The notes beneath the pieces were generated by a model, which was not told the origin of the DNA, searched no databases, and was given only the letters and a program-made list of their open reading frames with translations. A stretch of DNA of 64,000 bases, taken from assembly GCA_030536655.1 (NCBI GenBank), contig JAUNPN010000001.1, positions 20,559 to 84,558 of the forward strand. The letters are read 5' to 3'. Position numbers and translations under genes: made by a program. Below, in pieces: positions 1,254-29,888 of this stretch; within the stretch, counting starts at the first letter, position 1, and every line of letters starts with the position of its first letter. Source of the DNA: a bacterium. Its GTDB lineage: Bacteria > Bacillota > Clostridia > UBA1381.

Positions 1254-1283
1254 AAAAACCGCCCGCTCATCGAGCGGACGGTC
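1254..1283 (-). terminator. Rho-independent terminator of the split hydrolase gene
   Basis: Minus-strand hairpin CCGTCCGCTC-GAT-GAGCGGGCGG (one G.U pair) followed by TTTTT. It sits ~50 nt downstream of the stop at 1332. Confidence 0.7.
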
Positions 1284-1331: not shown

Positions 1332-1519
1332 TTAAAGAGCTGATTCATAAGGTGTTTCAAGAACGGGTTTCATACTGTCCCTCCAGATAAATACTTTAAC
1401 CGACAAGTTTTCCTTATTCTCCGGCATGGTAAAGCTGTCCTGTACGGTAAACAATGACTCCTCATCAAATTCAGGCTCATTAAATGTCTTGACGGACTCA
1501 AGTGCTCCGCCATTGTACA
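1332..1519 (-). pseudogene. 3' remnant (61 codons) of the ICE-disrupted giant glycoside hydrolase gene; partner is 47987-54014
   Basis: YNGGALESVKTFNEPEF...KVFIWRDSMKPVLETPYESAL matches the end of the C-terminal module of the 1874-aa and 2301-aa enzymes. The 23 codons upstream in ORF 1332-1586 are ICE-end sequence. There is no credible own start. Confidence 0.85.
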
Positions 1520-1543
1520 TTACGAATGTTCTTACAGAACCTG
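1494..1543. other. attL (host arm 1494-1517, crossover CA/TG 1518-1519, element arm 1520-1543)
   Basis: The element arm ttacgaatgttcttacagaacctg is an inverted copy (19/24) of the element arm at 47961-47984. Both lie at equal distance from a shared dinucleotide. Confidence 0.8.
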
Positions 1544-1571
1544 AACGGTTTTGTAAGAACATTCGTTTTTT
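1523..1571 (+). terminator. Perfect 14-bp hairpin plus T6 at the ICE left end; overlaps the attL element arm
   Basis: cgaatgttcttaca - 15 nt loop - tgtaagaacattcg followed by tttttt on the + strand. It lies directly between the recombinase stop (1574) and the junction. Confidence 0.5.
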
Positions 1572-1573
1572 AT

Positions 1574-3277
1574 TTATCCCGCACACGCCGCATAGTGAAT
1601 GTCTACACCCTGCCTTGTGTGTACTGACACATTATTTTCAGGTAATTTGTCAATATTCGGAATTTCAATACTTCCTATACAGTTATAATGAATTTTTAAG
1701 CGTTGTATTCGTTTACCGTCTATTTCCTCTGCCTGATATACCTCTATTTTCTCTATAAGCTCATTAAGCATTTTGGGCGTCAGCTTTCTTGCTCTTGTAT
1801 ATTTCCTAACAGATGTCATAAACATATCGGTTGAAACAGATTTGTTTGTATCTTTGTCGAGTTCGTCCTGTAACTCTTTTATACGGATATTGAGTTCTTT
1901 TTGTTCTGCGTCATATTTAACAGATAATTTTGAAAATCGTTCATCAGATATTTTCCCTGAAACATTATCCTCATAAATCTTTTCAAAAAGCACATCAAGC
2001 TCTTTATCGCGGGAAGTCAAAGAATTTAATTCTTTCTGCTTCATACGTCGTTCCTGTTCCGCCGTCTGTATGGAATGTCCCATAACTATTTGAGCAAATT
2101 CGGTTTCATATTGTGTCGCAAACTTTGTCAGACGTCTAATCTCGCCAAGTACAACCCGTTCTAAGAAGTCAACGCGGATATAATGCGTTGACGAACAAAT
2201 TTTCCTGTCGCCTTTGTTATATCCCGAACAGTTGAAATATTGTATGTCGTGATTTTTTTGATTGAAGTGATACCATAGATTGCTACCGCAATCAGCGCAT
2301 ACAAGCAACCCAGAAAACATATTCTTTTCGCCGTCTGCCTTTTTACGTTTTCTCGTCTTGCCGCGTTTACTCTGTATCTTTTCCCAAACAGCCCGCTCAA
2401 TAATAGGCTCGTGAACATCTTTAAAAACTGCTTGATTTTCTTTATCGTTAGCAAATCTTTTTTTGTTCTTATATGACTTTGAATAGGTTTTGAAATTGAT
2501 AACATCACCGCAATACTCTTGTAAATCAAGAATATATATAACCGTTGAACTATTCCATAAATACGGGTATTCCGGATTTTTCTTTCCCGGTCTGTTAATA
2601 CCCTTGCTCGCCCAATAGTTTATCGGTGTCATTATTTTATCCTTTTCCAATGTTTCAGCAATTTGCTCTGTGCCTATACCGTTCATAGTCATATTGAATA
2701 TACGGCGTACAACCGCTGCTGCTTCTTCGTCAATAATCCAAAACTTAGGATTATCAGGATTTCTCATATAGCCATACGGCGGAGCTCCCAACGGCTCACC
2801 CGAATTTCCTTTTATCTTATAACTGATACGGCGCTTTTTTGAAATATCACGCGCATACCATTCATTAAAAAGATTTTTTATCGGCGCAAGCTCATTTTCG
2901 CCCTCTTGCGTGTCTATATTATCTGAAACAGCAACAAGTCGTATATCGTGGTCTGGAAAAAATTCTTCCGTCAATTTGCCAACCTCAATATAATTACGTC
3001 CTAATCTTGAAAGGTCTTTTACAAATACGGCTGAAATTTTATTGTTTTCTATTGCTTCAATCATAGCTTTATATCCGGGACGTTCCATTGTAACGCCCGA
3101 AATACCGTCGTCGCAGAATATCAATAAATTTGTATAGCCTTTTTCCTTTGCGATTTTAGTTAGCAGCTTTTTTTGATTGACAATGCTGTAACTGTCGCCC
3201 TCTAAGTTATCATCACGGCTTAAACGAACATATAAAGCCGCTGTTATTTCTTTTTGTTTGTTATTTGACCGTTTCAT
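1574..3277 (-). CDS. Large serine recombinase (ICE integrase/excisionase)
   Basis: 567 aa. N-terminal resolvase catalytic domain (AALYVRLSRDD...VNQKKLL...DDGISG), then a recombinase domain and a Cys-rich zinc-ribbon region (CADCGSNLWY...CSGY). Its position at the element terminus is typical. Confidence 0.92.
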   Translation of the reverse strand: MKRSNNKQKEITAALYVRLSRDDNLEGDSYSIVNQKKLLTKIAKEKGYTNLLIFCDDGISGVTMERPGYKAMIEAIENNKISAVFVKDLSRLGRNYIEVGKLTEEFFPDHDIRLVAVSDNIDTQEGENELAPIKNLFNEWYARDISKKRRISYKIKGNSGEPLGAPPYGYMRNPDNPKFWIIDEEAAAVVRRIFNMTMNGIGTEQIAETLEKDKIMTPINYWASKGINRPGKKNPEYPYLWNSSTVIYILDLQEYCGDVINFKTYSKSYKNKKRFANDKENQAVFKDVHEPIIERAVWEKIQSKRGKTRKRKKADGEKNMFSGLLVCADCGSNLWYHFNQKNHDIQYFNCSGYNKGDRKICSSTHYIRVDFLERVVLGEIRRLTKFATQYETEFAQIVMGHSIQTAEQERRMKQKELNSLTSRDKELDVLFEKIYEDNVSGKISDERFSKLSVKYDAEQKELNIRIKELQDELDKDTNKSVSTDMFMTSVRKYTRARKLTPKMLNELIEKIEVYQAEEIDGKRIQRLKIHYNCIGSIEIPNIDKLPENNVSVHTRQGVDIHYAACAG

Positions 3278-3364
3278 AAGTCCTCCTTTCAGACAGTCAA
3301 ATAAACAGTATTACATTTATATTATACCGCGCTTTTAACCGTCTGTCAGCCTGTTTTAAAAATT

Positions 3365-3541
3365 TTATTCGCTTGATGTCATAAGCCGTAATAAAACAGA
3401 GCCTAATGTTTCGGAAGATTTCTCTTTAAATATCGGTTGTACAACAAATGAGGTTCCATTGACTTGATATGTAATTTCAGCGTCAAGTGATTTATCATTA
3501 CAATTATTTTTGTGTTTTGGATTTTGAGTAGTGTAATTCAT
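3365..3541 (-). CDS. TnpW-like small transposon protein (58 aa, below ORF-track cutoff)
   Basis: Hand translation: MNYTTQNPKHKNNCNDKSLDAEITYQVNGTSFVVQPIFKEKSSETLGSVLLRLMTSSE. GGAGG lies 10 nt upstream of the ATG. The pattern (T-Y-x-V...F...SETL...L-x-RL) matches the TnpW family found beside serine recombinases in clostridial transposons. Confidence 0.6.
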   Translation of the reverse strand: MNYTTQNPKHKNNCNDKSLDAEITYQVNGTSFVVQPIFKEKSSETLGSVLLRLMTSSE

Positions 3542-4033
3542 AAAAAATTAACCTCCATAAAAATTTATGTTAAATCCACCACCTAATAAACCCACCTACC
3601 GAGAGTAATAACTCAATCAAAAATCATCTGACTGTCGGCGGCTGCCGACATCACGACAAGTTAAATCCAGCTCATTCCTATGACCTGCCGCCCAATGCGG
3701 TGAAACGTTCAAGGCGGGGGTATTACAATATATCGGTATTTATATCAGCATATACAAGCCGTTATACGCCTATCAGAAATGTTTGTCGCTCGGATATACA
3801 GGCTGTTTTAATCTTGCAGCGTACTTTTATTGTACGGTAGAAGCTATATATCGTCTTGGCGCATTACTGAAAAATACGGATTTAAAGTAAAGTATCAGAT
3901 GATTTATATTCAGTTGTCAAAGAACAAAGGGGATTTTAGCCCATATAAGCGCATTAAGGGAATAATGCGTTTATATCGGATAAAACCCGTATAAGGGGCG
4001 CGGAAAGGACTGCACGCCCCAACGGTCAATCAA

Positions 4034-4273
4034 TTAGTAGCGAATTACAAAATTATTCACAATTCCCAAAACTAACTTTGCTTCAAGTCTTGATATAACA
4101 TCTTCATCAACATAATAATGTTTTTTGCCCCACTCGTCCTCATATACCCTTGTAGCCAAAGTCTTTATGTAGCTATGAAAATGTGATAGAATAAACTGTA
4201 AAGCGTATGATTTACCCTTGACAGCGTCCTCAATAATAGACAATGGAATGTCCTCAATTTTCTTCTTGCTCAT
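4034..4273 (-). CDS. Tn916 Orf8-like helix-turn-helix protein (HTH_16 type)
   Basis: 79 aa. IPLSIIEDAVKGKSYALQFILSHFHSYIKTLATR...VDEDVISRLEAKLVLGIV matches the conjugative-transposon HTH family that pairs with the Orf7-like sigma factor. Its start overlaps the end of the upstream gene. Confidence 0.75.
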   Translation of the reverse strand: MSKKKIEDIPLSIIEDAVKGKSYALQFILSHFHSYIKTLATRVYEDEWGKKHYYVDEDVISRLEAKLVLGIVNNFVIRY

Positions 4274-4694
4274 AGTGAAAATCCTCCTTTTGCAGCAGAT
4301 TACATAATAGTTTTAATGCCTGCTTACGCCTTTTAAAAACTGTTTGTTGAATTAGATTTAATCGTCTGCCGATTTCTATATCGCTCATTCCAATAAAGTA
4401 CGATAGAATAATAACATCTTGTTTATTCTTTGGTAGCTGACGAATAGCTTTCGCTAATCGGTTATCCGTAATTATAATGGTCTTACCATTTATATAAAAT
4501 GCGTTTTCGCCCTTAAAGTAATTATCATATATACCTATATCGCCTATATCATCAAGCGGAAAAATAGTAATGTCTTTTTTATATTTCTGTCCTCTGTTTT
4601 GCTCTCGGTAAACATCACATATTTCGTTTTTTAGTAAACGAGTGCAAAATTTACAGAATTGATTTAAAATACGTTTATCATTTTCAGCGTTCAT
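4254..4694 (-). CDS. Sigma-70 family RNA polymerase sigma factor (Tn916 Orf7-like)
   Basis: 146 aa. Region-4 HTH: LPKNKQDVIILSYFIGMSDIEIGRRLNLIQQTVFKRRKQALKLL. AGGAGG RBS. Confidence 0.8.
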   Translation of the reverse strand: MNAENDKRILNQFCKFCTRLLKNEICDVYREQNRGQKYKKDITIFPLDDIGDIGIYDNYFKGENAFYINGKTIIITDNRLAKAIRQLPKNKQDVIILSYFIGMSDIEIGRRLNLIQQTVFKRRKQALKLLCNLLQKEDFHYEQEEN

Positions 4695-4730
4695 AAGACA
4701 ACCTCCTTTTGTGATTGAAAGTTGTTGTCC

Positions 4731-4781
4731 TTATTTACCCCTCTATAAATGTTTAACGGAAAAAATTTTTGAAAAACAACC
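4731..4781 (-). promoter_or_regulatory. Conserved ~50-nt upstream element, copy A (upstream of sigma operon)
   Basis: GGTTGTTTTTCAAAAATTTTTTCCGTTAAACATTTATAGAGGGGTAAATAA (minus orientation) is near-identical to 16299-16349 on the + strand. It ends ~40 nt before the sigma start codon. Confidence 0.55.
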
Positions 4782-5242
4782 ATTTTTTGGTAAATGTTAA
4801 AATTTTTTTTATTTTGTTTCATATCTGATAACCTCCAATTTTGAATTTGCGTTTTTCAAAATCGGGATTATGGATAGCGAATAGGGGGCTTGTCCCATTC
4901 GTGTTCTATAAAAAAACATATATGTGTATGATAAGAGTAAATAACAGAAATTTTGCAGACGAGATAAAAAAATTTTTGCCTATTCTTAATATATCCCGTA
5001 GAAACACCAAAAAGCGTAATACTATGTGTCAAAAAACCACACAATATTACGCTTTCTCTGTTAGGTACTGTTAAACTGTCATTTTTCGCATTGATAGGTG
5101 CAAAAGTGGAATATGGTTTATATATTTTTTTGATAAATAAAGTTTTCTATCAGACCTGTAAATAGGTTTATTGTTTTTTATTCCACTCATATCTCCTGTA
5201 CATTAGTAAATTATTTGTGAGTATTTACCATTATCAAACTAA

Positions 5243-6469
5243 TCAATTATATAAATGACTCGGCAGACCGTCTACCATAATAGGCGACAATTCGGCTTGT
5301 ATCAGCGGACGCGCGTATGACAAAAATTCAGGCGACACATATGTACCATTATCTGTTATCCATTCCAAAGGCACTTTTTTCTCAATGTTTGCAATTTTGT
5401 TAATATCAAACGGTTGCGTGGTACACTGATACGGATTGTTTGTAACGCGGTTAAATATAATCATTTTGCCTGTTTCACCTCTGAACGACGCTTCAACCGC
5501 GTGTCCGCCTGCAACAAAGGCTTCTGTTATATCTACTCTTGAAACCATATGCGAGCCGCAGCGTTGGAGAATATTCAAATCTATTGCGCGCGATTTGCAG
5601 CCAAATTCTTGTGTTATTGTATTTGACAGGAATTGTGCCGTGCCGCCTAATGCGACGTGTCCGAAAGAGTCTTTAAATTGTGATTGACTTGATATAAGTT
5701 CGCAGACATATCTACCGTCTTTTAACTTTATACCCTCAGAAACCGCAACAACTATTGACTTTTTATTTTTTCTTAAATTTTCTATGCTTGAAAGGAAACT
5801 GTCAACATCAAATACTTTTTCAGGCAGATATATCAAATCAGGACCGATACAATCCTCGCCCTTGCTAAGTGCAGCCGAAGCTGTAAGCCAGCCTGCGTTT
5901 CTTCCCATAATCTCTACAATATGTATATTTTGATTTCCATACACATTTGCGTCCTTGATTATTTCTTTCATAACCGTTGCGATAAATTTTGCTGCGCTTC
6001 CGTAACCGGGAGTATGGTCTGTTTCGGCAAGGTCATTATCAATAGTTTTTGGTACACCCATAAATCTTATGCTGCTGTTTATCTTTTCTCCGTAATGAGA
6101 TAGTTTTTTAATGGTATCCATTGAGTCATTTCCGCCGATGTAGAAAAAGTGTTCAATTTCAAGGTCATTAAGCATTTTAAAGATTTTTATGTATATTTCT
6201 TCATTTTCCTCTATTTCAGGTAGTTTGTATCGGCAAGAGCCGAGATATGCCGATGGAGTTCTTTTAAGTAATTCAATATGCAAGTCTGTCTGAATATGCT
6301 CCGACAAATCTACATATCGTCCTTCAAGAAATCCCGCAATTCCATTCTGCATACCGAATACTTTATTTGCGCCCCTGTCGCGTGCGGTTTTAAATACTCC
6401 TGCAAGACTTGAATTGATAACGGCGGTTGGTCCGCCTGACTGACCTACAATAACATTTCCGTGTTTCAT
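5243..6469 (-). CDS. 6-phosphofructokinase, probably pyrophosphate-dependent type
   Basis: 408 aa. GQSGGPTAVINSSLAGV, IGGNDSMDT and VPKTIDNDL motifs. The Asp and Lys at the positions of E. coli PfkA Gly104 and Gly124 are the PPi-PFK signature. Confidence 0.85.
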   Translation of the reverse strand: MKHGNVIVGQSGGPTAVINSSLAGVFKTARDRGANKVFGMQNGIAGFLEGRYVDLSEHIQTDLHIELLKRTPSAYLGSCRYKLPEIEENEEIYIKIFKMLNDLEIEHFFYIGGNDSMDTIKKLSHYGEKINSSIRFMGVPKTIDNDLAETDHTPGYGSAAKFIATVMKEIIKDANVYGNQNIHIVEIMGRNAGWLTASAALSKGEDCIGPDLIYLPEKVFDVDSFLSSIENLRKNKKSIVVAVSEGIKLKDGRYVCELISSQSQFKDSFGHVALGGTAQFLSNTITQEFGCKSRAIDLNILQRCGSHMVSRVDITEAFVAGGHAVEASFRGETGKMIIFNRVTNNPYQCTTQPFDINKIANIEKKVPLEWITDNGTYVSPEFLSYARPLIQAELSPIMVDGLPSHLYN

Positions 6470-6511
6470 TTTTTTGTTTCCTTTCTTACAATAGATGTTA
6501 TTACTTTAATT

Positions 6512-8875
6512 TTAAAAATATTTATTCAATAAAATCAATTTATCACCTTTTATAAAATCAATTTCAGCCGTTCTACCGTTTTGTGAGATAATATTTTTGC
6601 TGTTACAAATCATATTATTCGCGCAAAATGGAGGCAGTTCGATTATTATATTAAATGTTTTGCTTGCTGTTAATTCTGCTTTAAACTCATTTTTAGGTAT
6701 ATTCCATTCCATATCAATAGTGCCGCCCTCAAATCTCCAGCCTGTAATCTTTCCGTGCTGCATATCATCACTTAGAGCCGGAAGAAGTTTTATCAATTTC
6801 TTTGAGGAATACAAAATCATTTCCTGCACTGCGTTTACATATCCCATACTTGCGTCAAGCTGAATAGGAGCGGCAGAGTCCATTTCCAAAGACAAATCCA
6901 TTCGCCGCCAATCATTATGCAGCGTGAAAAAATTAGTTTGCATACAGCTTCTTACGAGATTATTTAAGCAGTCCATCGCGTCATTACCGCGATTAAATCT
7001 TGCATATATTGACGCCATATGCGCCTGCGACCAACCTGTTTGTGCGCTAATATCTCTCAAATCAACCGCCTTTTCAAATGCTGATACCATATCGTCGTTT
7101 GTTGTTATTTCATCACCCGGAAAAACAGGATATATATGCGACAAATGCCTGTGATAATACCTGTCCTCAAAATCATCGTCCTGCCATTCCTTAACGGCTC
7201 CGTCTTTATTTACGCTATATTCGGGAATGGAATTTACGATATTTTCCCATATTTTAATTTTGTTGCCGTATATATTATGCTCGACGCATAACTCGATTAA
7301 ATTTGTAAACAATTCCTTGATTATCGCCAAATCCATAGTGGAATTAACAGCGCTTGTCATAGGGTGCGCCATATCAACATTGTCTTTTGGAATAAAATTC
7401 AAAGGAGAATTTTCGGGCGAAACACTCGGATATATTTTTATATACCCGCTTTCATCAAACGCAATAAAATCCTCATAAAACTCTGCCGCCGCTTTCATAA
7501 ATGGCAGAACAACACTATGCAGATATTCAGTATCTCCTGTATAGGAATAATATTTATAATAATGCTGCGCCAGCCAACCTGCTGCGCCCGTCCAATTCAT
7601 AATTACAGGCACAAGCTGACACGGTAGCGGCATATTCGGTGTTGTTCCTGCCGGAATAAATATACCTTTACAGCCGTAGAGTTTTTTAGCGCACTCCTTA
7701 AAGATGTCAAGCCTGCTTATATAATACTCTAATAATGCCTTGTTAAGCTCCTCCAGATTGCCGATATTAGCGTGCCAATACATCATCTGTATATTTTCAT
7801 TTGCCATATTATGACTCCATACAGCTTTATAATCTCCGCACCATAATCCGTACATAGAAAACGGAAATCCGTCCTTAGAACTTCCCGATATAAATAAATA
7901 CCGCCCGTACCGCCATAGTTTTTCGATAAGCTCATTCGGAGATTTGCCGCTATACGCATTTAACATAAGTTCCTCATTCGATAAATCATTGTTCTCAAAC
8001 AAGTTAAGCTCCGCACTATGATACAAGGCACTGTGAAGCGGAATATGACGGTTTAGATAATATTCATAGCTGTTATTCTCAAATTTCAACTTGTCTTTAT
8101 CAGGACAGCCATTTACAAATACCTTTATTTTAATAAGAATATCAGACGCGCAATTTACATTGATACGGCTTTCACTGTTTTTAATATCACCGTCAGCACT
8201 TTCGATTTTTACCACCGCGCCGTATGGTTTTTTATTGGTATTAAGCGATTTATAAATGATAATATTACTGTCTATTTCAGTACGGCTATGTTCCTTTACA
8301 TATTGATATGTTTTGTCGGAGCTGTCGGTAGCTGTTGGAACATCTAATGAAAATACAGCGTCCAAGAAAGGCTTATCTGCCTGTATTCTAAGAAGTATCA
8401 TATCGTCTTTTCGTGATACGAATAAATCTTTTTTTACCCACACGTCTTTTTCACGAAATTGTGAGCTTACTTCGCCTGTTTCCATATTGACAGCGCGAAG
8501 ATAATCAGAAAATCCTGTAAAGCCTGTAAAAGACATATTAAGTTCTGCAAGTGGCAGCGGATAACCGCGCTCATTGTTATATCCGCTTTCTGTAAGCGCA
8601 TTTGTTAAAATCCAATTTGCCGTATTGAAATCTCTGTTATCCATTGCTTGACGTGTCTTTGTCAGACTTCCGCTTATATCAGGGAGAGGATTACACTCCG
8701 TACCCGTCCATAAAGCACTGTGATTTATAAGCACACTTTCGCGTTTTGTGCCGCCGTACACATTTGCGCCTATTTTTCCGTTACCGCTCACCAAACCCTC
8801 GCGCCACAAGGCTTTATGCCACGACGAGGGATATTTCATTGTAATTACATTTATGTTTTTATTTATCAGTTTCAT
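6512..8875 (-). CDS. GH95-family glycoside hydrolase, no signal peptide (cytoplasmic)
   Basis: 787 aa. N-terminal WREGLVSGNGKIGANVYGG...INHSALWTG and catalytic-domain GLWCGDYKAVWSHNMANENIQMMYWHANIGNLEE match GH95 signatures. Confidence 0.8.
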   Translation of the reverse strand: MKLINKNINVITMKYPSSWHKALWREGLVSGNGKIGANVYGGTKRESVLINHSALWTGTECNPLPDISGSLTKTRQAMDNRDFNTANWILTNALTESGYNNERGYPLPLAELNMSFTGFTGFSDYLRAVNMETGEVSSQFREKDVWVKKDLFVSRKDDMILLRIQADKPFLDAVFSLDVPTATDSSDKTYQYVKEHSRTEIDSNIIIYKSLNTNKKPYGAVVKIESADGDIKNSESRINVNCASDILIKIKVFVNGCPDKDKLKFENNSYEYYLNRHIPLHSALYHSAELNLFENNDLSNEELMLNAYSGKSPNELIEKLWRYGRYLFISGSSKDGFPFSMYGLWCGDYKAVWSHNMANENIQMMYWHANIGNLEELNKALLEYYISRLDIFKECAKKLYGCKGIFIPAGTTPNMPLPCQLVPVIMNWTGAAGWLAQHYYKYYSYTGDTEYLHSVVLPFMKAAAEFYEDFIAFDESGYIKIYPSVSPENSPLNFIPKDNVDMAHPMTSAVNSTMDLAIIKELFTNLIELCVEHNIYGNKIKIWENIVNSIPEYSVNKDGAVKEWQDDDFEDRYYHRHLSHIYPVFPGDEITTNDDMVSAFEKAVDLRDISAQTGWSQAHMASIYARFNRGNDAMDCLNNLVRSCMQTNFFTLHNDWRRMDLSLEMDSAAPIQLDASMGYVNAVQEMILYSSKKLIKLLPALSDDMQHGKITGWRFEGGTIDMEWNIPKNEFKAELTASKTFNIIIELPPFCANNMICNSKNIISQNGRTAEIDFIKGDKLILLNKYF

Positions 8876-8903
8876 ATTATCCTCCTTGAAGTCTTATACT
8901 ATA

Positions 8904-8935
8904 AATGCCAATCCGAAATATTCCGAATTGGCATT
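8904..8935 (-). terminator. Hairpin between the 1874-aa gene and GH95 (terminator or attenuator)
   Basis: 12-bp stem (aatgccaattcg / cggattggcatt, one mismatch) with an 8-nt loop. Only a weak T tract follows on the minus strand. Confidence 0.4.
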
Positions 8936-8955
8936 TATAAAATATAGGGAGAGAG

Positions 8956-11900
8956 TTAACGCAAAATCTTTGCTTCTGTAAGCGGCTTCATATTCTCTAA
9001 ACTGTTCCATAAGAACGCTTTAATATAATCTCCGCTTTCAATCGCTGAATTTGAATATGTAATGCTATATTCGTTGGCACTATTAGCCGTTACTGTATGC
9101 TTTTCGGTTTTCAATTCCTTTAAAGTTCCGTTTCCATCATACAATGCAATCATCATATTTACGGGTATATCCGTTTCACCGTTATTTTTTATAGCAGAAG
9201 TTGCCGTAACTGTTTCTCCTGCGGTTAATTCTGTTTTGTCAAATTCTATTTCACCAGCCGAGAACGGTTCTTCAAATTCTCCCTTTACAACTGTTATTCC
9301 TAACAGACCTGCTAAGACCTCGCTTGAAAGACATTCAAAGTCAACGCTTTCTATTTGATTAACCTTGCCAAAGTCAAGAGCGAGAATATTTGAATGTGCT
9401 TTGGCGCCAAGCATTTGCACATATCCCGTTTCCGCATACGGTTTTGCTTGCTGATAATTGAGCCAATCGTCAATATTATCAGGGTTTGTAAGCGGAAGTA
9501 TTTCTTTTGTTCCGTCTTTCATATTAACCGTAATTCTCGCGTTCTCAATTCTGCTCTGCATATTATTTGTAGATACGCTTAACATAAAGTAAATCTTTGA
9601 ACCGTCTGTATTAACGGGAATATTCATCTTGTCGGGGAACTGATTATATAGCGATACAAAAGCCGCATTGTTTCCCTCTGCTGATGAAATTTCAAAAGGA
9701 ACGCCTATATCTGTTAAATACTTACCTGATGTAAGATTTAAGCTACTCGGAACACCGTCTGCACCTCTGCCCGGCTCCCACCAAGCGCGTCCGTTTGGAA
9801 GAACCGTTCTTTCCGCGTCAGACGACCAATAAAATTTCTCAAGCCTGTAATGCTCGTTGCCCTCATAAGTGAGGTCATATTCATTTTGGTGCAGCGTTCT
9901 CAAATCCTGATTTACAACGCCATCAAGTGATATTGTCTGATACTGCTCCGCAGTATTTGTTACATTATCCTTTAAATCCCAAGCGGTAAGCTCGCCGTAA
10001 ATTGTTTTGTTTACATCTCCGCTTAAAACTGCTGTAACCCTATTGTTGCCGGGTGTTAAATCGGGTTCGCTTTCAATCGGTACAAGAATTTCATTACTTG
10101 CGCCCTTTGCCGCTATCGTTATATTTTCTTCTGTAACTTTGCCGCTTACAGTTGACAATGTAGCATTGAGTTTAAGCTGTTTTTCAGTGTTATTTGTGAG
10201 CTTCACTTTTATTCCCGCATTTGCGCCTGTAACAATTTCCATATCAGTTAATTCAACTGCATCCTTAACTTCAAGGTCAACAGGCAATACAGCAGTCATA
10301 TCGTTTTTCTCTACCGTAACAAAGAATGTATGGTGTCCTGATTTTTCGCCTAACGCTACTGTTATCGTATCTGTGCCGATACCATTCGTATTTGTAATTA
10401 AGCTCTGCGGGTCTGAAATAGCTGTGATTATACCGTTTGATTTAACAGTGTAATCAGAGTTTTTACCGCCGACAGGTTTCGCTCCAATCTTTGCAAGCTC
10501 ATCATTTGCATATGTTACCTCAATAACTGCACTGCTATTGACAGGAGTTTTTACATTTACAAAATTATCAACCGTATAATTCGTTACCTCCGAGCCGTTT
10601 ACCTTAACGCTTGTAATTTTTGAGCTTCTTGTAGGAATGTGCATTTCATAGCTCAAATTTTCCTTTGATGTTACACTAAATTTATCTGTGTTATTTTCGT
10701 ATTTATAGTCATAGCTTACAGCGTCCATTTTTATAGACGCATATTTCCAATCTGCGGGGAAACCGGGTTTTATATCAGCTTTTCCGTCCGGCACATTTAC
10801 TTTTATTCCGAATATACCCTCTGCCGCTGTTCTCGCATATTGCGATGTACAGTCTGCAAAGTCAATATGACCGTTATTTGATAAATCGGCTTTCACAATA
10901 TGCTGGACAGTTCCCTGACCTGCCGAACTGCCTTTCATAAGAGGAACAAGACAAGCTCTAAACTGTTTCATTCCCATTTCGCGCTGACCGTTTTCAAAAT
11001 ATGCAAGGGCATTGTTCATAACCTCCTCAACATACAAGCCGTCACTTGAATAATATTCGGGAAGTCTGTTTGAAGAATACTTAAAATCTATATTATCCCA
11101 AATTTTATCTAAGTTTGCAACACTCGGAACAGCATAATCGGTAAATCTCATCATTTGATATACCTGTTCATCAGTCGCAATCCCCATATCAACAGCAGTA
11201 TATATTGACGATAAATCGGGCGCGGCGTTAAGTCTGCCGTAACCAAAGCGTTCCTTTACTTCTCCGAATACACCTGTGTCAGCGTCCCAAAGCTGCTCGT
11301 TCATTTCCTTTTTGATTAAATCAGCCTTTGTCTGATATGCTGCTGCGTCATCTGTCTTACCGAGTTTCGACGCAATTTTTGCCATTGTATTATATGCTCT
11401 CCAAGTGTATGCGGTTGCTATTGAGCCTGCGCCGCCGTTGTTCCACTTATTATCGGTATTCCAAGCGTCAAGCCAATTTTCATATAAATTTGTTCCGGGA
11501 ACCTGCATATAATCGTCCATAAATTTAAGGTGTCCGGCGATAAATTCATATCCGCCCTCATTTGCAAAGAACGCGTCATCTCCCGTCCAATCCCAATACT
11601 GCATTATAATATCTACCATTACAAGGCTCATATTATAGCGTCCGTCGTGAGATGGATATGCCCATATTCTTCCTGTATCTTTCTCCTGTCTTGCAATATA
11701 ATTTTGAATATTAGTTTTTATTCTGTCGCTCCAGCCTGCATTTACAAAGCAATATCCGCCGCGCCAGCCGCCCTGTCCGTTATGCCAGCCGATTGCGCCG
11801 TGAGTTATAACAGGATTATCCCATATGTTATCCATTGCCATAATCTGAGCGCGCATAGCTGAATTGATGTACGGGTCGGGAGTATCAATTTTTATAGTTT

Positions 11901-14580
11901 CCGCAACACCTTTGAAATAGCTTATACTATCGTTAAATATTTCTCTTGCGTTTGTCTGATACTCGTTAAAATATTTATTTTCTGACGGACTATCTGTTGT
12001 AATCATCATATACACCGTATTTTCGGTATTACCGTCAGTCGTGCCTACTACCATTGGCTGATTTGCCGCTGTTGAGGTTAATAAAGCGTCCACTCCTGAA
12101 CTGTACATTGACGCGTCCTTTGCGGCATAATTCATTTTTACATTTGATGTGCCGCTTATTGTAGCATATGAGCCTGTGATACTGAATGAATTATCAGTAA
12201 ATGTCGGAACAGTTGAATTTGTATCGGACGGACTAAATTCAAGTGCGGAAGAATTACCGCCTGTCGGCTGCTTGCTGTCTATTTTATTACCGCCTGCCGC
12301 TGCAACTACCAGCTTATCCTTTACACTGTCGGGAAGCTCTGCTTTTACAAGCATAGCGTCGATTTTGTCCGAGCGTGTATATGTCAGCTTTATTTCACCC
12401 TCAAAGGAACTGTCTTTTATAACATATTCTTCGTACCCGTTTACATATCTTGCAGTTATATTGCTCATTTCATCAAGCCATTTTCCGTCCTTTATGCCAA
12501 GAAACATATGAGCAAAACGGAAAAAGCTTGTGCCTGTACCCGCATTTGACAATACCAATTTCGGTCTGTCGCCGAGATAATAGATATATCTGAACGAGGT
12601 TTCGCCATTATCGTTTGTATGCGCCGCATATATAGGGCGCGTATAATTCTTGTTTCCGTTGTCAATCTCAAAACCGCCGTCAACAGGCTTGTATGTAAAC
12701 GGATTTTTTGTAACTACAACCTTTAAGCTGCCTTTTATATCAGCAGTTGAAGCGGTAACAGTTATAGTCTGTTCTGTTGCTGTGCTGTCTGCTGTTACTG
12801 CCGCACTTGCGCTGTCAAAAGTTATACCGTTACTGTCATATGTTTCCATACTCCAAGAAAAGTCAGTATTCTTAATTTCAACGCCCTTTTGGTCGTATGC
12901 TTTTGCGGTATATGTAAAGCTCTTTGTTCCGCTTTTCGGTATTTCTATTGACATATCACCGTCTACGGCGATTTCTGATAATACAGGCTTATATACTCTT
13001 ACTGTCTTGCTTGCGGTTATATCGCCTGATGTTGCCTTAATTATAACGTCGCTGTCGCTGTTTACTGCGGCTGTCAGCACCCCGTTTTCAAAGGTTATAC
13101 CGTCTGTCGTATTTTCAGCGTTCCAGCCGCTTAATTCCTCTGACGGCATTTCCACTCCGTATTGGTCAAATATTTTTACCGTATAGGTTTCGCTTACCTG
13201 CGACGCTGTTTGCAGCATATCCGCTCCGATTATTTCTATTTTAGAAGCAGTCATTTTATATGTTTCTATTTCTTCTGAAATAGCATAAATACCCGGATTA
13301 TCTTCTAAGGCAGCCTTTACCTTAAAAGAGCTTGCCGTTGCTGATGAAGTTGAAGAAATAACGCCTGTGTTTTCGTCTATGATTATTCCGCTATCGTTTA
13401 ATGCTGTTTCATCAGTATTTAAAAGCGACCATTTAAGCGGTATTCCATACGCTTCGCTGCCTGCCTTGTCATAGCACTGAGCATAAAATTCTGTTGTTAC
13501 AGAACCGCTGTTCGGTATCGGCAATCTGCTTGCAGGATTTATAAGACTTACAGACGCCGCTGAGCCGGCCTGCGCTATCGTGATTTTTGCGCTGTCATAC
13601 TCCGAACCGTCATAGCTTAAAAGTCTTACGTTATATTCGCCTGCGTCTGCTTCGGAGCTTACAGTTAAAACGCCTGTCGCAGGATTTAATGTTATGCCTG
13701 TCGGTAAATTCTCCTGTAAACTTTCTGTATCATCTGAATTATAAAGCTCAAACTTTACTAATTCTTTTGACAGCGGTTCATAGCTTGATAAATCAACGCC
13801 GTTAAACGAAGCCGCTGCGACAAGATAGTTTACTGTTTTTGTTGTTCCCTCGGCGGGAATAGAAACCTTGCTTATATCGTCTGTTACTCCGATAGTAACC
13901 TCCGTCGGCGCAGGTTTATATACTTTCATATTTCTGACGTCAACCGCGCCGGAGCGTATATCGCTTTCGCCGTTTACTTTGTTTGTAACATTAAATTGTG
14001 AAAATATAGACTGAGTTAAGTTTCTAATTACTTTTTCAGACTTGGTCGCCTGTACTTTCTCGTCTGTATCTGCCGCCTTAGTGTAAGCAACCATACTTGT
14101 TGTTCCGTTGGCAAGAAATTTTATATTGTACCACTTGTTTGCTTCTGCGCCCTGATACATTGTTTCATAACTGCTCGGATTACCTATTTTTGTCTTAATT
14201 TTTTCACCGTCGAATATTACCGTAGGTCCGAGCTTTGAGCCGCCGTACAACTCTACAACACCCGAATTTCCATCCGCAAATCTCACGTCAAATTCTGCAA
14301 CATATATGCTGCCACCTGCAAGAGTGCTGTCAACCTTTCGTGTAACCTTTTGTTCTGTGTCTACGGCTGTATAGCGCATATATGGAATTTCCTCGTCGGT
14401 TAAGATTTCCATATTTTCTGTCTTGCCCGTCCACTTGTTATTTTCCGATGTAAAATCTTCGTTCAGATACACCTGCAATTCTTCTGCACTTACATTCAAT
14501 GCAGCAGTTGGAATAAACGCACATATCATCTGCAACGATAATACAGCGGATAAAATACGTTTTAATGCTTTTGCTTTCAT
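8956..14580 (-). CDS. 1874-aa secreted multidomain glycoside hydrolase-like protein (LamG-like N-module, Ig-like repeats, (alpha/alpha)6-barrel-like core, C-terminal Ig-like module)
   Basis: Signal peptide MKAKALKRILSAVLSLQMICAFIPTAALNVSAEE. Four or more Big_2-like repeats. The core (GAIGWHNGQGGWRGGYCFVNAGW...YENWLDAWNTDNKWNNGGAGSIATAYTWRAY) looks like a six-hairpin glycosidase, but I cannot assign the exact family. The C-terminal module is shared with two other enzymes in the window. Confidence 0.7.
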   Translation of the reverse strand: MKAKALKRILSAVLSLQMICAFIPTAALNVSAEELQVYLNEDFTSENNKWTGKTENMEILTDEEIPYMRYTAVDTEQKVTRKVDSTLAGGSIYVAEFDVRFADGNSGVVELYGGSKLGPTVIFDGEKIKTKIGNPSSYETMYQGAEANKWYNIKFLANGTTSMVAYTKAADTDEKVQATKSEKVIRNLTQSIFSQFNVTNKVNGESDIRSGAVDVRNMKVYKPAPTEVTIGVTDDISKVSIPAEGTTKTVNYLVAAASFNGVDLSSYEPLSKELVKFELYNSDDTESLQENLPTGITLNPATGVLTVSSEADAGEYNVRLLSYDGSEYDSAKITIAQAGSAASVSLINPASRLPIPNSGSVTTEFYAQCYDKAGSEAYGIPLKWSLLNTDETALNDSGIIIDENTGVISSTSSATASSFKVKAALEDNPGIYAISEEIETYKMTASKIEIIGADMLQTASQVSETYTVKIFDQYGVEMPSEELSGWNAENTTDGITFENGVLTAAVNSDSDVIIKATSGDITASKTVRVYKPVLSEIAVDGDMSIEIPKSGTKSFTYTAKAYDQKGVEIKNTDFSWSMETYDSNGITFDSASAAVTADSTATEQTITVTASTADIKGSLKVVVTKNPFTYKPVDGGFEIDNGNKNYTRPIYAAHTNDNGETSFRYIYYLGDRPKLVLSNAGTGTSFFRFAHMFLGIKDGKWLDEMSNITARYVNGYEEYVIKDSSFEGEIKLTYTRSDKIDAMLVKAELPDSVKDKLVVAAAGGNKIDSKQPTGGNSSALEFSPSDTNSTVPTFTDNSFSITGSYATISGTSNVKMNYAAKDASMYSSGVDALLTSTAANQPMVVGTTDGNTENTVYMMITTDSPSENKYFNEYQTNAREIFNDSISYFKGVAETIKIDTPDPYINSAMRAQIMAMDNIWDNPVITHGAIGWHNGQGGWRGGYCFVNAGWSDRIKTNIQNYIARQEKDTGRIWAYPSHDGRYNMSLVMVDIIMQYWDWTGDDAFFANEGGYEFIAGHLKFMDDYMQVPGTNLYENWLDAWNTDNKWNNGGAGSIATAYTWRAYNTMAKIASKLGKTDDAAAYQTKADLIKKEMNEQLWDADTGVFGEVKERFGYGRLNAAPDLSSIYTAVDMGIATDEQVYQMMRFTDYAVPSVANLDKIWDNIDFKYSSNRLPEYYSSDGLYVEEVMNNALAYFENGQREMGMKQFRACLVPLMKGSSAGQGTVQHIVKADLSNNGHIDFADCTSQYARTAAEGIFGIKVNVPDGKADIKPGFPADWKYASIKMDAVSYDYKYENNTDKFSVTSKENLSYEMHIPTRSSKITSVKVNGSEVTNYTVDNFVNVKTPVNSSAVIEVTYANDELAKIGAKPVGGKNSDYTVKSNGIITAISDPQSLITNTNGIGTDTITVALGEKSGHHTFFVTVEKNDMTAVLPVDLEVKDAVELTDMEIVTGANAGIKVKLTNNTEKQLKLNATLSTVSGKVTEENITIAAKGASNEILVPIESEPDLTPGNNRVTAVLSGDVNKTIYGELTAWDLKDNVTNTAEQYQTISLDGVVNQDLRTLHQNEYDLTYEGNEHYRLEKFYWSSDAERTVLPNGRAWWEPGRGADGVPSSLNLTSGKYLTDIGVPFEISSAEGNNAAFVSLYNQFPDKMNIPVNTDGSKIYFMLSVSTNNMQSRIENARITVNMKDGTKEILPLTNPDNIDDWLNYQQAKPYAETGYVQMLGAKAHSNILALDFGKVNQIESVDFECLSSEVLAGLLGITVVKGEFEEPFSAGEIEFDKTELTAGETVTATSAIKNNGETDIPVNMMIALYDGNGTLKELKTEKHTVTANSANEYSITYSNSAIESGDYIKAFLWNSLENMKPLTEAKILR

Positions 14581-14698
14581 AGGTCTGCCTCCTTAAATTA
14601 TTTCTTAAATTTATTGTTAATTTAATTATACAATATTCATTTTGCTTTGTATATGTCAAAATACTGCATATTTTATGATAAATTCACGCATTTTTATA

Positions 14699-14727
14699 TT
14701 GCGTTGATTTCCGCAATATGATATACT
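14699..14727 (+). promoter_or_regulatory. Sigma-A-type promoter of the AraC gene
   Basis: TTGCGT - 17 nt - TATACT with TGn extended -10. A 7-bp inverted repeat TATTGCG/CGCAATA overlaps the -35 and spacer. It lies 20 nt upstream of the start codon region. Confidence 0.5.
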
Positions 14728-14746
14728 AAAAGCAGGGGGTGAGCGT

Positions 14747-15589
14747 ATGAATAAAACTATCCGATATTCTTCGTTTGAAAATAAATTTGAGGTGATATAC
14801 AGGAATGAAATTCCGACTGTTCTAATGCCGCCGCATACGCATAATGCGATTGAATTATACATAAGTCTGACGCCGCTATCAAATATACTGCTCGGCGATA
14901 CTGTAATGCCGCTTAAAGAAAATTCGCTGCTTATAATACCGTCATATTGTATTCATCAGTTTACACAACTTCCTGACTGTGAGTATGAGCGATATATTAT
15001 AACTATCAGTACGGAATGGCTTGAAAATTTTATAGCGGACAATAAAAGATACAGCTATTTTACTGATACAAAAAAACCTATCGTTATTACTCTTGATGAT
15101 AAACAAAAAGCATTATTGCTTAATCGTATGCAGGATTTTATCGCCTGTAAAAACAACGATACCTTTTCTGAAATATCAATATTTTTTGATATTCTGAAAA
15201 TTATAGACGGATTGATTTATACTCACGCTGAAAATGACGAGGTGGAAAAGAGAGTTACAGGAACGCAGCAAACGGTAAATCAGATTATTAAGTACATAAA
15301 TGCTCACCTTACAGAGAATATTCATCTTACGGATATTGCAGAAAAGTTTTATTTAACACCTAATCATATATCAAGAATATTTAAAAAGCATACGAATACG
15401 CAAATAAGCAATTATATTATTTTGCAGAGAATGACAAAGGCAAAACAACTTTTTCGTGAGGGATTTACAGTTGCGGAAGCGCAGATAGCAACAGGATATT
15501 CAAGCTATGAACATTTTTTCCGTACTTTCAAAAAGAATGTCGGTATGACACCAAAGGAATATATAAATGCTTATTATAATCGCGAATAA
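14747..15589 (+). CDS. AraC family transcriptional regulator (cupin sensor plus HTH)
   Basis: 280 aa. N-terminal cupin-like HTHNAIELY, and a C-terminal double HTH (IAEKFYLTPNHISRIFKKHT...TGYSSYEHFFRTFKKNVGMTPKEY). It is divergent from the hydrolase operon. Confidence 0.9.
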   Translation: MNKTIRYSSFENKFEVIYRNEIPTVLMPPHTHNAIELYISLTPLSNILLGDTVMPLKENSLLIIPSYCIHQFTQLPDCEYERYIITISTEWLENFIADNKRYSYFTDTKKPIVITLDDKQKALLLNRMQDFIACKNNDTFSEISIFFDILKIIDGLIYTHAENDEVEKRVTGTQQTVNQIIKYINAHLTENIHLTDIAEKFYLTPNHISRIFKKHTNTQISNYIILQRMTKAKQLFREGFTVAEAQIATGYSSYEHFFRTFKKNVGMTPKEYINAYYNRE

Positions 15590-15605
15590 AAATTTTTTGA
15601 ATTAT

Positions 15606-15640
15606 TTAAAAACAACCACCCGCACATCATGGGTGGTTGT
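15606..15640. terminator. Hairpin terminator between the convergent AraC and esterase genes
   Basis: acaaccaccc - 9 nt - gggtggttgt. A T5 run follows on the minus strand and an A run precedes on the + strand. Confidence 0.6.
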
Positions 15641-15653
15641 TCCGCTCTATATC

Positions 15654-16212: not shown

Positions 16213-16298
16213 AAAAACACCTCTGTTTTTAATATTAAATATATTTCTAACATAATTTAATTAAAAACTCTATAAAATATTGAATTTTATATTGAAAA

Positions 16299-16349
16299 GG
16301 TTGTTATTTCAAATTTTTTTTCGTTTAACATATATAGAGGGTAAAATAG
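16299..16349 (+). promoter_or_regulatory. Conserved ~50-nt upstream element, copy B (upstream of oriT and the mob operon)
   Basis: GGTTGTTATTTCAAATTTTTTTTTCGTTTAACATATATAGAGGGTAAAATAG. See copy A at 4731-4781. Confidence 0.55.
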
Positions 16350-29887: not shown

Positions 29888-29888
29888 A

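What the first reader, a model, noticed from the sequence alone, without database searches (positions are those of the whole stretch)
1494..1543. Base-pair-level ICE junctions: TG crossover and a reconstructable dyad-symmetric 50-bp attP (partner site 47961-48010)
In coding-strand orientation, the element-side 24 nt at the left junction is CAGGTTCTGTAAGAACATTCGTAA. The element-side 24 nt at the right junction is GTACGGGTGCTGTTACAGAACCTG. These are inverted copies of each other at 19/24 positions (outer 12/12). Both are exactly equidistant from a shared TG (CA on the + strand at 1518-1519 and 47985-47986). Joined, they give attP = CAGGTTCTGTAAGAACATTCGTAA-TG-GTACGGGTGCTGTTACAGAACCTG. Imperfect inverted arms around a 2-bp core, with no target duplication, is the known architecture of large-serine-recombinase sites. 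The recombinase gene stops 54 bp inside the left end. This gives a new, fully specified attP/attB pair.
Basis: partly seen in the sequence, partly recalled or inferred. Interest (0 to 1): 0.75.

Follow-up and report, generated by a model that had tools for sequence, protein, structure and literature searches.

The report
Exact ends of a conjugative element

Summary
Observation confirmed; interpretation supported with one correction.

**Sequence check.** The 24-nt element ends (1520-1543 and 47961-47984) are inverted copies at 19/24, with the outer 12/12 exact. Each abuts a CA (TG on the gene strand), at 1518-1519 and 47985-47986.

**Empty site.** Removing 1520-47986 restores a 2077-aa ORF that ends at 1332, just upstream of a terminator-like site. 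Joins shifted by one base give early stops.

**Relatives.** Elements whose recombinase is 92-98% identical keep the same end sequence exactly through ...CGTAA-TG and then diverge into different flanks.

**Joined ends.** One contig (L042) carries a P-arm/TG/P'-arm junction with exactly the predicted spacing.

**Identity.** The element is an ICE (relaxase, VirD4, VirB4, TrbL). Its recombinase is a TnpX-like large serine recombinase with a DUF4368 domain.

**Correction.** All 16 distinct flanks seen in relatives (70-98% identity) are tRNA 3' ends (Leu, Arg, Pro among those identified), and the TG is the CA of the encoded CCA. The window's site inside a glycosidase-like gene is therefore probably a secondary, partly tRNA-like site.

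**Extra feature.** The P arm is also half of a conserved inward-facing terminator hairpin.

**Verdict.** New member of a known kind. tRNA targeting by serine recombinases may be undescribed.

The parts
1494..1543 (-). Recombinase-proximal junction (hybrid site P-TG-B'). Gene strand: CAGGTTCTGTAAGAACATTCGTAA-TG-TACAATGGCGGAGCACTTGAGTCC
   Evidence: relatives share the sequence through ...CGTAATG and then diverge
1518..1519 (.). Crossover dinucleotide, CA on + (TG on the gene strand), left copy
1520..1543 (-). P arm of attP (element side, 24 nt)
   Evidence: conserved in L001-L004, L050 and L051
1522..1566 (+). 20-bp-stem hairpin plus T-run, an intrinsic-terminator-like structure reading from the flank into the element. 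Its 5' half is the P arm
   Evidence: terminator scan; -29.2 kcal/mol, z = -9.1; conserved in 6 relatives, 2 compensatory pairs, G.U pairs on this strand only
1574..3277 (-). Large serine recombinase, 567 aa (Resolvase + Recombinase + Zn_ribbon_recom + DUF4368), TnpX-like
   Evidence: (TnpX catalytic domain 2mhc, E = 2.9e-31)
3365..3541 (-). 58-aa TnpW-like ORF just upstream of the recombinase gene; an ORF of similar size and position is present in relatives
   Evidence: PF14202, E = 2.3e-4, below the gathering score
4034..4694 (-). HTH_16 (79 aa) and sigma-70 region-4 (146 aa) regulatory pair, conserved next to the recombinase module
1520..47984 (.). Integrated ICE, 46,465 bp (46,467-bp circle with one TG). 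Transfer and maintenance genes: relaxase 16774-18117, NikA/MobC 16412-16813, TopoIII 26443-28506, CD1107-like 28507-29187, NlpC/P60 29889-32432, VirB4 34452-36890, PrgI 36826-37242, TrbL_2 37608-38477, VirD4 38713-40482, DUF3801 40479-40967, two ArdA, ArdC-like, C5 methylase. Cargo: PFK, GH95, a 1874-aa glycosidase-like protein and an AraC regulator
46729..47652 (-). DUF6017 protein, first gene inside the distal end. Used to fetch distal junctions of relatives
47961..47984 (-). P' arm of attP (element side, 24 nt). Gene strand: GTACGGGTGCTGTTACAGAACCTG
47985..47986 (.). Crossover dinucleotide, CA on + (TG on the gene strand), right copy
47961..48010 (-). Recombinase-distal junction (hybrid site B-TG-P'). 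Gene strand: CGATACGGTTATATATGCCGCAC-TG-GTACGGGTGCTGTTACAGAACCTG
47987..54032 (-). 5' part (about 2015 codons) of the interrupted target gene, a secreted multidomain glycosidase-like protein with a Melibiase_C domain. As it stands it ends in a 22-aa element-encoded tail with its stop at 47919
1332..1517 (-). 3' part (62 codons plus stop) of the interrupted target gene
1259..1277 (-). Terminator-like hairpin plus T-run downstream of the target gene's stop codon

Best explanation
Window 1520-47984 is an integrated conjugative element. It was inserted by its own TnpX-like large serine recombinase (1574-3277, minus strand).

Proposed mechanism:
- The recombinase made a 2-bp staggered exchange at TG. 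One partner was the element's attP, CAGGTTCTGTAAGAACATTCGTAA-TG-GTACGGGTGCTGTTACAGAACCTG.
- The other partner was the chromosomal sequence ...ATATATGCCGCAC-TG-TACAATGGCGGAGCAC..., inside the 3' end of a 2077-aa glycosidase-like gene.
- Nothing is duplicated except the TG. Reversal would restore the gene and release a 46,467-bp circle.

Normal target of the clade:
- This recombinase clade normally uses the 3' end of tRNA genes that encode their CCA. The TG is the CA of that CCA, so the tRNA stays intact.
- The 20-bp hairpin plus T-run at the element end, half of which is the P arm, would then replace the displaced tRNA terminator.
- The window's site is a rare secondary site that mimics parts of a tRNA end. 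It has an ACTTGA T-arm-like motif in register on one half and GTGCGG on the other half.

Shown: the repeats, the shared TG, the restored ORF, the divergence point in relatives, a P-TG-P' junction in a related element, tRNA flanks in relatives, and the hairpin.

Inferred: catalysis by this protein, the 2-bp stagger, the terminator function, and the secondary-site status.
For: - Inverted arms at 19/24, outer 12/12 exact, equidistant from CA.
- The ORF is restored only by the TG join. It ends at 1332, and a terminator-like site follows at 1277-1259.
- The recombinase has Resolvase, Recombinase, Zn-ribbon and DUF4368 domains and the motif YVRLSRDD. Its best PDB match is TnpX.
- A full conjugation gene set is present.
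- Relatives at 92-98% identity share the end through CGTAA-TG and then carry tRNA-Leu or tRNA-Arg.
- Relatives at 70-80% identity show the same layout at tRNA-Leu, Arg and Pro. There are 16 distinct flanks, and one identical protein (P0125) sits at 8 or more different tRNA-end flanks, seven of them called tRNA-Leu.
- L042 carries a P-TG-P' junction with the exact predicted spacing.
- Homology to L008 starts exactly after the P' arm.
- The hairpin is very stable, conserved and strand-specific.
- The window's B' distal motif is in the top 0.04% of flank positions, and the inverted B proximal motif is in the top 0.03%.
- The DUF4368 clade is described as multi-targeting and as including TndX-like enzymes (PMC10083194).
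- TnpX carries out both integration and excision (PMC5704250) and uses a 2-bp target (PMC3158075).
Against: - No empty site and no circular junction of this exact element were found.
- The L042 junction comes from a 95.7%-identical relative with a variant P arm. It could be a tandem-array junction rather than a circle.
- Homologues of the target protein do not reach the junction, so the restored C-terminus rests on frame, ORF length and the terminator only.
- The tRNA-mimicry of the window site was noticed post hoc. Its full-length score is poor: -21 against +26 to +41 for real tRNA sites, rank 47 of 2291 TG positions.
- The distal (B) arms of natural tRNA sites were never seen.
- No biochemistry was possible.
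Confidence: 0.82

Rival explanations
1. The site inside the glycosidase-like gene is this element's dedicated primary attB. On this view the recombinase is site-specific for that gene, and the tRNA insertions of relatives reflect diverged specificity.
For: The same insertion is present in three contigs from two other samples (L041/L070 and L043). The window's P arm differs by one base (T instead of C at arm position 18) from the 97-98% relatives.
Against: Recombinases 97-98% identical, with arms differing by a single base, sit at tRNA-Leu and tRNA-Arg. All 16 other distinct flanks in the clade are tRNA ends. The three contigs (two samples) are 99.8-99.9% identical to the window, so they are one insertion event in one lineage rather than independent events.
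Confidence: 0.1
2. The exchange happened elsewhere, for example inside the GTAC shared by both junctions, or through a different enzyme. On this view the TG is coincidental.
For: GTAC occurs next to both junctions (1515-1518 and 47981-47984). In the tRNA sites of relatives the shared stretch TGGT(A) does not by itself fix the dinucleotide.
Against: A GTAC-register join makes the empty site one base longer, which shifts the frame and gives an early stop (a one-base-longer join stops at aa 2023). Window and relatives diverge right after CGTAATG, so GG, GT and AT are each incompatible with one of the two window junctions. No second recombinase was found among the ORFs scanned; one serine recombinase sits 54 nt from the end.
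Confidence: 0.03
3. The P-TG-P' junction in L042 is the internal junction of a tandem array of two related elements at one tRNA, not a circular excision product. It would then say nothing about whether excision occurs.
For: L042's P arm is the variant carried by elements with 77-80% identical recombinases, while its P' arm and backbone match the window's element. The conserved part of natural targets is only the tRNA half, so a P-TG-tRNA hybrid site could plausibly accept a second element.
Against: Only 27 nt are available on the P side, so the two cases cannot be told apart. Either origin needs exchange at the same TG with the same arms, so the junction assignment stands in both cases.
Confidence: 0.4
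4. The terminal inverted repeat reflects only the terminator hairpin and a decayed tRNA-like relic at the far end. On this view it is not a pair of recombinase half-sites.
For: The P arm is half of a 20-bp hairpin. The P' arm resembles a tRNA 3' end: its first 8 nt equal the flank in L088, and AC-AGAACC resembles ACTTGAACC.
Against: The two arms are exactly equidistant from the crossover. They are retained in relatives while the neighbouring DNA changes. L008, which has a different att arm, loses exactly the 24-nt arm. A dual role is more likely than an exclusive one.
Confidence: 0.05

Closest known systems
TnpX of Tn4451/Tn4453 and TndX of Tn5397 (clostridial 'large resolvase' transposases; the DUF4368 multi-targeting LSR clade of Durrant et al. 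2022, PMC10083194)
   Same: Same domain architecture, including DUF4368. The best PDB hit is the TnpX catalytic domain. A TnpW-like small ORF lies next to the gene (weak). A 2-bp repeat is the only duplication (PMC3158075). Nearly identical enzymes are found at many different sites. Targets resemble the element's own joined ends, which from my own recollection was also reported for Tn4451.
   Different: The crossover is TG, not the GA I recall for Tn4451/Tn5397. The element is a 46.5-kb self-transmissible ICE, not a 6-kb mobilisable transposon. The targets seen are almost all tRNA CCA ends rather than assorted sites.
Serine integrases of phages (phiC31, Bxb1, A118/LI integrase, SPbeta SprA)
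   Same: attP of about 50 bp made of imperfect inverted half-sites around a non-palindromic 2-bp core. Resolvase, Recombinase and zinc-ribbon domains are shared. SprA (YokA) structures match at E = 1e-17.
   Different: Those enzymes use a single specific site inside a protein-coding gene and need an RDF to excise. Here there are many tRNA sites, and the attP arms and the attB half look alike with only about 1 nt difference in motif spacing.
Tn1549/CTn2-CTn5-type ICEs of Clostridia with serine recombinases (PMC3158075)
   Same: Same type of conjugation module (MobA/VirD2 relaxase, VirD4, VirB4, TrbL_2, PrgI, CD1107-like, NlpC/P60, TopoIII, ArdA). A serine recombinase gene sits at one end, and the ends are defined by very short repeats.
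   Different: The cargo differs: PFK, GH95, a giant glycosidase-like protein and an AraC regulator. The att arms and target class differ. No sequence-level comparison with those named elements was possible here.
tRNA-targeting tyrosine integrases of genomic islands (Islander class, PMC4383910)
   Same: They use the 3' end of tRNA genes and leave the tRNA functional.
   Different: The enzyme family and chemistry differ. Tyrosine-integrase islands duplicate a tRNA 3' segment of tens of bases, whereas here only the CA of CCA is shared. That paper states that serine integrases were not known to target tRNA genes.

Membership tests
Large serine recombinase (serine integrase) | N-terminal resolvase catalytic domain with the serine nucleophile motif | tested here: met
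   PF00239 at residues 13-150, E = 5.5e-24. The motif YVRLSRDD aligns with ...YERLSRDD of TnpX.
Large serine recombinase (serine integrase) | Recombinase domain plus zinc-ribbon domain C-terminal to the catalytic domain | tested here: met
   PF07508 (184-306) and PF13408 (320-381).
Large serine recombinase (serine integrase) | att sites made of imperfect inverted half-sites around a 2-bp non-palindromic crossover, with only that dinucleotide repeated at the element ends | tested here: met
   Arms 19/24 around TG. A P-TG-P' junction is seen in L042. The ORF is restored with one TG.
Large serine recombinase (serine integrase) | The protein catalyses attP x attB exchange with a 2-nt stagger | not testable with these tools
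   Needs an in vitro or two-plasmid recombination assay.
TnpX/TndX-like DUF4368 multi-targeting clade | C-terminal DUF4368 domain | tested here: met
   PF14287 at residues 472-538, E = 3.3e-24. Clade description from PMC10083194.
TnpX/TndX-like DUF4368 multi-targeting clade | Closely related or identical enzymes found at many different target sites | tested here: met
   16 distinct flanks. P0125, one identical sequence, sits at 8 or more different tRNA-end flanks, seven of them called tRNA-Leu. P0044 sits at 3 tRNA ends.
TnpX/TndX-like DUF4368 multi-targeting clade | Excision and insertion by the recombinase alone, without an RDF | not testable with these tools
   Stated for TnpX in PMC5704250. 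Only a weak TnpW-like ORF is seen here.
Integrative and conjugative element (type IV secretion, Firmicutes type) | Relaxase, coupling protein, VirB4 ATPase and mating-pore genes lying between the two att junctions | tested here: met
   Relaxase, T4SS-DNA_transf/TraG-D_C, TraG P-loop, TrbL_2, PrgI, CD1107-like and NlpC/P60.
Integrative and conjugative element (type IV secretion, Firmicutes type) | Demonstrated excision to a circle and conjugative transfer | tested here: inconclusive
   A P-TG-P' junction exists in a 95.7% related element (L042), but a circle cannot be told from a tandem array. Transfer was not testable.
tRNA-gene-targeting islands of the tyrosine-integrase type | Tyrosine recombinase, plus duplication of a tRNA 3' segment at the far end of the island | tested here: not met
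   No tRNA or tRNA fragment is called in the window. The recombinase at the end of the element is a serine enzyme. Only 2 bp are repeated.

The most novel reading that the evidence does not exclude
This recombinase belongs to a widespread gut-Clostridia clade of serine recombinases that are dedicated tRNA-gene integrases. They recognise the generic 3' end of many different tRNA genes (GT-acceptor...GGACTYGAACC) and exchange strands at the CA of the encoded CCA. They also carry their own replacement terminator for the tRNA. tRNA targeting has been regarded as a hallmark of tyrosine integrases; a 2014 source says serine integrases were not known to do it. The window's off-target insertion is the one case that pins the crossover to TG for the whole clade.
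Probability: 0.4. Interest if true: 0.6.

Novelty: new member of a known kind. Interest (0 to 1): 0.42.

Why it matters
As stated, the finding gives a precise, testable attP and one attB for an uncharacterised TnpX-like recombinase. That is useful for annotating this ICE and possibly as an integration tool. Thousands of such pairs have already been predicted computationally, so on its own it is routine.

The comparative work adds three points:
- It indicates the enzyme's normal targets, the CCA ends of several tRNA genes. This is a compact site of about 26 nt that is generic to bacteria.
- It shows that the element end doubles as a terminator.
- It shows that this ICE truncated a large secreted glycosidase-like protein in its host.

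If tRNA targeting by serine recombinases is indeed undescribed, it would change a textbook generalisation about integrase families. It would also offer a broad-host-range landing site.

Tried and rejected
Searches for an empty site, all without success:
- A protein search with the reconstructed C-terminus found only 41-58% homologues that stop before the junction.
- A GTDB genome scan with the same peptide found nothing.
- Look-up of the neighbouring 2301-aa gene returned only contigs with the same insertion, or contigs truncated before the junction.

Searches for the distal arm or the circular junction:
- A metagenome scan with the P' 20-mer gave 3 chance hits with no further similarity.
- Three viral-contig scans gave nothing or a chance hit.
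- A GTDB scan with the DUF6017 protein gave 33 loci. None had this P' arm, though L008 proved useful as a module-swap control.

Alternative registers rejected:
- A GTAC-overlap join and joins shifted by one base were rejected on reading frame and on the divergence point in relatives.

Literature:
- I found no description of serine recombinases targeting tRNA genes. The library is incomplete, so this is not proof of novelty.
- The recombinase and its att sites could not be checked against the Durrant et al. LSR database.

Full report
**1. The observation**

- On the + strand, 1520-1543 is TTACGAATGTTCTTACAGAACCTG and 47961-47984 is CAGGTTCTGTAACAGCACCCGTAC.
- Each is flanked on its outer side by CA, at 1518-1519 and 47985-47986.
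- As inverted copies the arms match at 19/24, with the outer 12/12 exact. That 12-mer occurs nowhere else in the window.
- The 567-aa recombinase ORF is 1574-3277 on the minus strand. Its stop codon lies 54 nt inside the left end.

The repeat alone is not overwhelming. In an unbiased scan of 275,000 24-mer pairs around the two sites, 19/24 is the maximum and falls at these coordinates. Random region pairs reached 19 in 4 of 200 trials. The case rests on the independent lines in section 3.

**2. What lies between the junctions**

The interval 1520-47984 (46,465 bp) is an integrative conjugative element.
- DNA processing: MobA/VirD2 relaxase with a NikA/MobC accessory protein.
- Secretion system: VirD4-type coupling protein, VirB4-type ATPase, TrbL_2, PrgI, CD1107-like protein and an NlpC/P60 hydrolase.
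- Other backbone genes: topoisomerase III, DUF3801, DUF6017, two ArdA proteins, an ArdC-like protein and a C5 methylase.
- Cargo: phosphofructokinase, GH95, a 1874-aa glycosidase-like protein, an AraC regulator and a 1741-aa SLH surface protein.

The recombinase has Resolvase, Recombinase, Zn_ribbon_recom and DUF4368 domains. Its best match among solved structures is the catalytic domain of TnpX (2mhc, E = 2.9e-31). A 58-aa TnpW-like ORF (weak hit), an HTH_16 protein and a sigma-70 region-4 protein lie just upstream. Close relatives have the same arrangement.

**3. Tests of the base-pair assignment**

(a) Restored gene.
- Deleting 1520-47986 and keeping one CA fuses the 2037-aa ORF that runs into the right junction to 62 further codons in the left flank.
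- The result is a 2077-aa protein that reads ...RYNDTVIYAAL|YNGGALESVK... across the join.
- It ends at 1332 and is followed by a terminator-like hairpin at 1277-1259.
- Joins one base longer or shorter stop at aa 2023 or 2065. Of the three minus-strand frames in the left flank, only the frame of the restored ORF is open from the junction through the stop at 1332.
- The alternative register suggested by the GTAC next to both junctions makes the empty site one base longer, so it fails.

(b) Divergence point in relatives.
- Elements whose recombinases are 92-98% identical (P0007-P0010) share the downstream sequence through ...CAGGTTCTGTAAG(A/T)ACA(C/T)(C/T)CGTAA-TG.
- Their flanks differ from the next bases on. 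L001-L003 continue GTGCGGATAAC... (tRNA-Leu CAG). L004 and L050 continue GTACGCCCGG... (called tRNA-Arg ACG in L004). The window continues TACAATGG....

(c) The joined ends exist.
- The first gene inside the distal end encodes a DUF6017 protein. It has a 100% identical copy (P0127) on nine contigs.
- Two of them (L041, L043) show the same insertion as the window.
- One, L042, begins GTTCAAGTTCTGTAAGAACACTCGGTA-TG-GTACGGGTGCTGTTACAGAACCTGTCC....
- Its right part is the window's P' arm and backbone, 95.7% identical over 10 kb.
- Its left 27 nt are identical to the P arm of elements whose recombinases are 77-80% identical to the window's.
Only three bases of the P arm differ from the predicted junction string.
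- Assuming a de Bruijn assembly with a k-mer of about 31, as I believe these assemblies use, the two ends share too little sequence to be joined falsely.

(d) Module boundary.
- A related ICE, L008, has a 70% identical DUF6017 protein.
- It is homologous to the window from the base after the P' arm inward. In place of the arm it carries a different inverted repeat.

(e) Why TG and not a neighbouring dinucleotide.
- In the tRNA sites the shared stretch is TGGT(A), which leaves the choice open.
- The window's two junctions read ...GTAA-TG-TACA... and ...GCAC-TG-GTAC....
- AT, GG and GT are each incompatible with one of these two junctions, so only TG remains.

**4. The correction: the usual target is a tRNA CCA end**

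Every other flank recovered for this recombinase clade is the 3' end of a tRNA gene on the opposite strand, and the TG is the CA of the encoded CCA.
- tRNA-Leu (CAG, TAG, CAA, GAG), tRNA-Arg (ACG), tRNA-Pro (GGG) and other tRNA-like ends that the tRNA finder did not call, on contigs cut short (L065, L077, L087).
- There are 16 distinct flanks. Their consensus after TG is GTgcgg.tg..gGGACTtGAACCc.C.
- One identical protein sequence (P0125) sits next to at least eight different tRNA-end flanks, seven of them called tRNA-Leu.

In L076 and L080 the element abuts only a 28-nt duplicate of a tRNA-Pro 3' end. About 26-28 nt therefore appears sufficient on that side.

This agrees with the published description of the DUF4368 clade as 'multi-targeting' (PMC10083194). 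The main text of that paper does not mention tRNA. [quoted passage not shown] I found no later description in the held library.

The window's site is the only non-tRNA site seen. Scored with a matrix built from the 16 tRNA ends, it is a poor overall match: -21 bits against +26 to +41, rank 47 of 2291 TG positions in the 17.5 kb of host flank. It does have two partial resemblances.
- Its B' half carries AG.ACTTGA..C in the same register as the T-arm motif. This is in the top 0.04% of flank positions.
- Its B half, read inverted, starts GTGCGG like tRNA-Leu. This is in the top 0.03%.

I noticed this after looking, so I treat it as suggestive only. The three other contigs with the same insertion (L041/L070 and L043, from two samples) are 99.8-99.9% identical to the window, so they represent one event. 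I conclude that the reconstructed attB is probably a secondary site.

**5. Extra anatomy**

The P arm is the 5' half of a 20-bp-stem hairpin (1522-1566, + strand) followed by TTTTTATTTA.
- It folds at -29.2 kcal/mol, z = -9.1 against shuffles.
- Hairpin plus T-run is conserved across six relatives with two compensatory pairs. Its G.U pairs exist only on this strand.
- This strand is the one on which the neighbouring tRNA would be transcribed into the element.
- I infer that the hairpin terminates the tRNA transcript, whose own terminator has been displaced, and that it shields the recombinase gene from antisense read-through. This is inference; no transcript data were available.

The P' arm itself resembles a tRNA 3' end. 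Its first 8 nt equal the tRNA-Leu(TAG) flank of L088, and its AC-AGAACC compares with ACTTGAACC, one base shorter. Both attP arms and the attB half therefore share one motif. From my own recollection, Tn4451 targets were likewise reported to resemble the circular joint.

**6. Mechanism and confidence**

- Most likely (0.82): TnpX-like serine recombination at TG between the 50-bp attP and a chromosomal site. tRNA CCA ends are the normal targets, and the present insertion is an off-target event. It replaces the last 62 aa of a secreted glycosidase-like protein with a 22-aa tail.
- Dedicated primary site in this gene: 0.10.
- A different crossover or enzyme: 0.03.
- Repeat unrelated to recombinase binding: 0.05.
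- Whether L042 represents a circle or a tandem array is open. It does not affect the junction assignment.

**7. Comparison and novelty**

The architecture is that of known large serine recombinases and of clostridial ICEs with such enzymes (PMC3158075, PMC5704250). All testable defining features are met, so this is a new member of a known kind.

It differs from TnpX and TndX in three ways:
- the TG core;
- carriage on a 46.5-kb ICE;
- the tRNA-end target class.

The last difference, if undescribed, is the most interesting outcome.

**8. What was not achieved**

- No empty site and no circular junction of this exact element were found.
- The natural B arm of tRNA sites was not seen.
- There is no homologue evidence across the restored junction.
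- No check against published LSR databases was possible.

Noticed in passing
window 1522-1566 (+); relatives L001, L004, L050, L051, L057, L062: The recombinase-proximal att arm is half of a very stable 20-bp hairpin followed by a T-run that reads from the flank into the element. It is conserved with compensatory changes and is probably a replacement terminator for the targeted tRNA gene.
   Followed up: yes
L001-L004, L050, L057-L068, L072-L091: Recombinases 70-98% identical to the window's sit next to 16 different tRNA 3' ends (Leu, Arg and Pro among those identified), always joined at the CA of the encoded CCA. One identical protein (P0125) is found at 8 or more different tRNA-end flanks, seven of them called tRNA-Leu.
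   Followed up: yes
L076 and L080 (about 2470-2650 in L080): The element abuts a 28-nt duplicate of the tRNA-Pro 3' end. The duplicate lies 69 nt downstream of a complete tRNA-Pro(GGG) and its terminator. A short tRNA fragment therefore suffices as a target; it may be the scar of another island.
   Followed up: partly
L008 2760-2800 compared with window 47920-47984: A related ICE (DUF6017 protein 70% identical) is homologous up to the base after the P' arm. In place of the arm it carries a different inverted repeat (ATTGTTATA-CTTC-TATAACAAT). The att arm, and presumably the recombinase, are exchanged as a module.
   Followed up: partly
L052-L055 and L062-L068: Elements with 77-82% identical recombinases carry an extra 110-117-aa Resolvase-domain ORF downstream of the large recombinase gene (lying between it and the att arm in L062-L068). 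Its role is unknown.
   Followed up: no
window 5243-15589; L053 1-1115: The ICE cargo next to the recombinase module is carbohydrate-related: PFK, GH95, a 1874-aa glycosidase-like protein and an AraC regulator. A GH95 gene also lies upstream of an 82% related recombinase in L053.
   Followed up: no
window about 48880-49000 compared with L041 8649-8723: The target gene differs between the window and an otherwise 99.9% identical contig by an overlap of about 75 nt between two alignment pieces in its ETASPSPEATDEPK linker. This suggests repeat-number variation.
   Followed up: partly
window 41412-46637 (-): The ICE encodes a 1741-aa protein with many Cys-rich CxxC...TCT(E/A)xG(Y/F)T repeats, Big_1-like repeats and three SLH domains. 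It is presumably a surface adhesin for mating.
   Followed up: no
window 47919-47986 (-): Because of the insertion, the target ORF now ends in a 22-aa element-encoded tail (VRVLLQNLSKNRIKSRVLSSL) in place of its last 62 residues. The displaced 3' fragment forms an 84-aa GTG ORF (1332-1586) that starts inside the element.
   Followed up: partly
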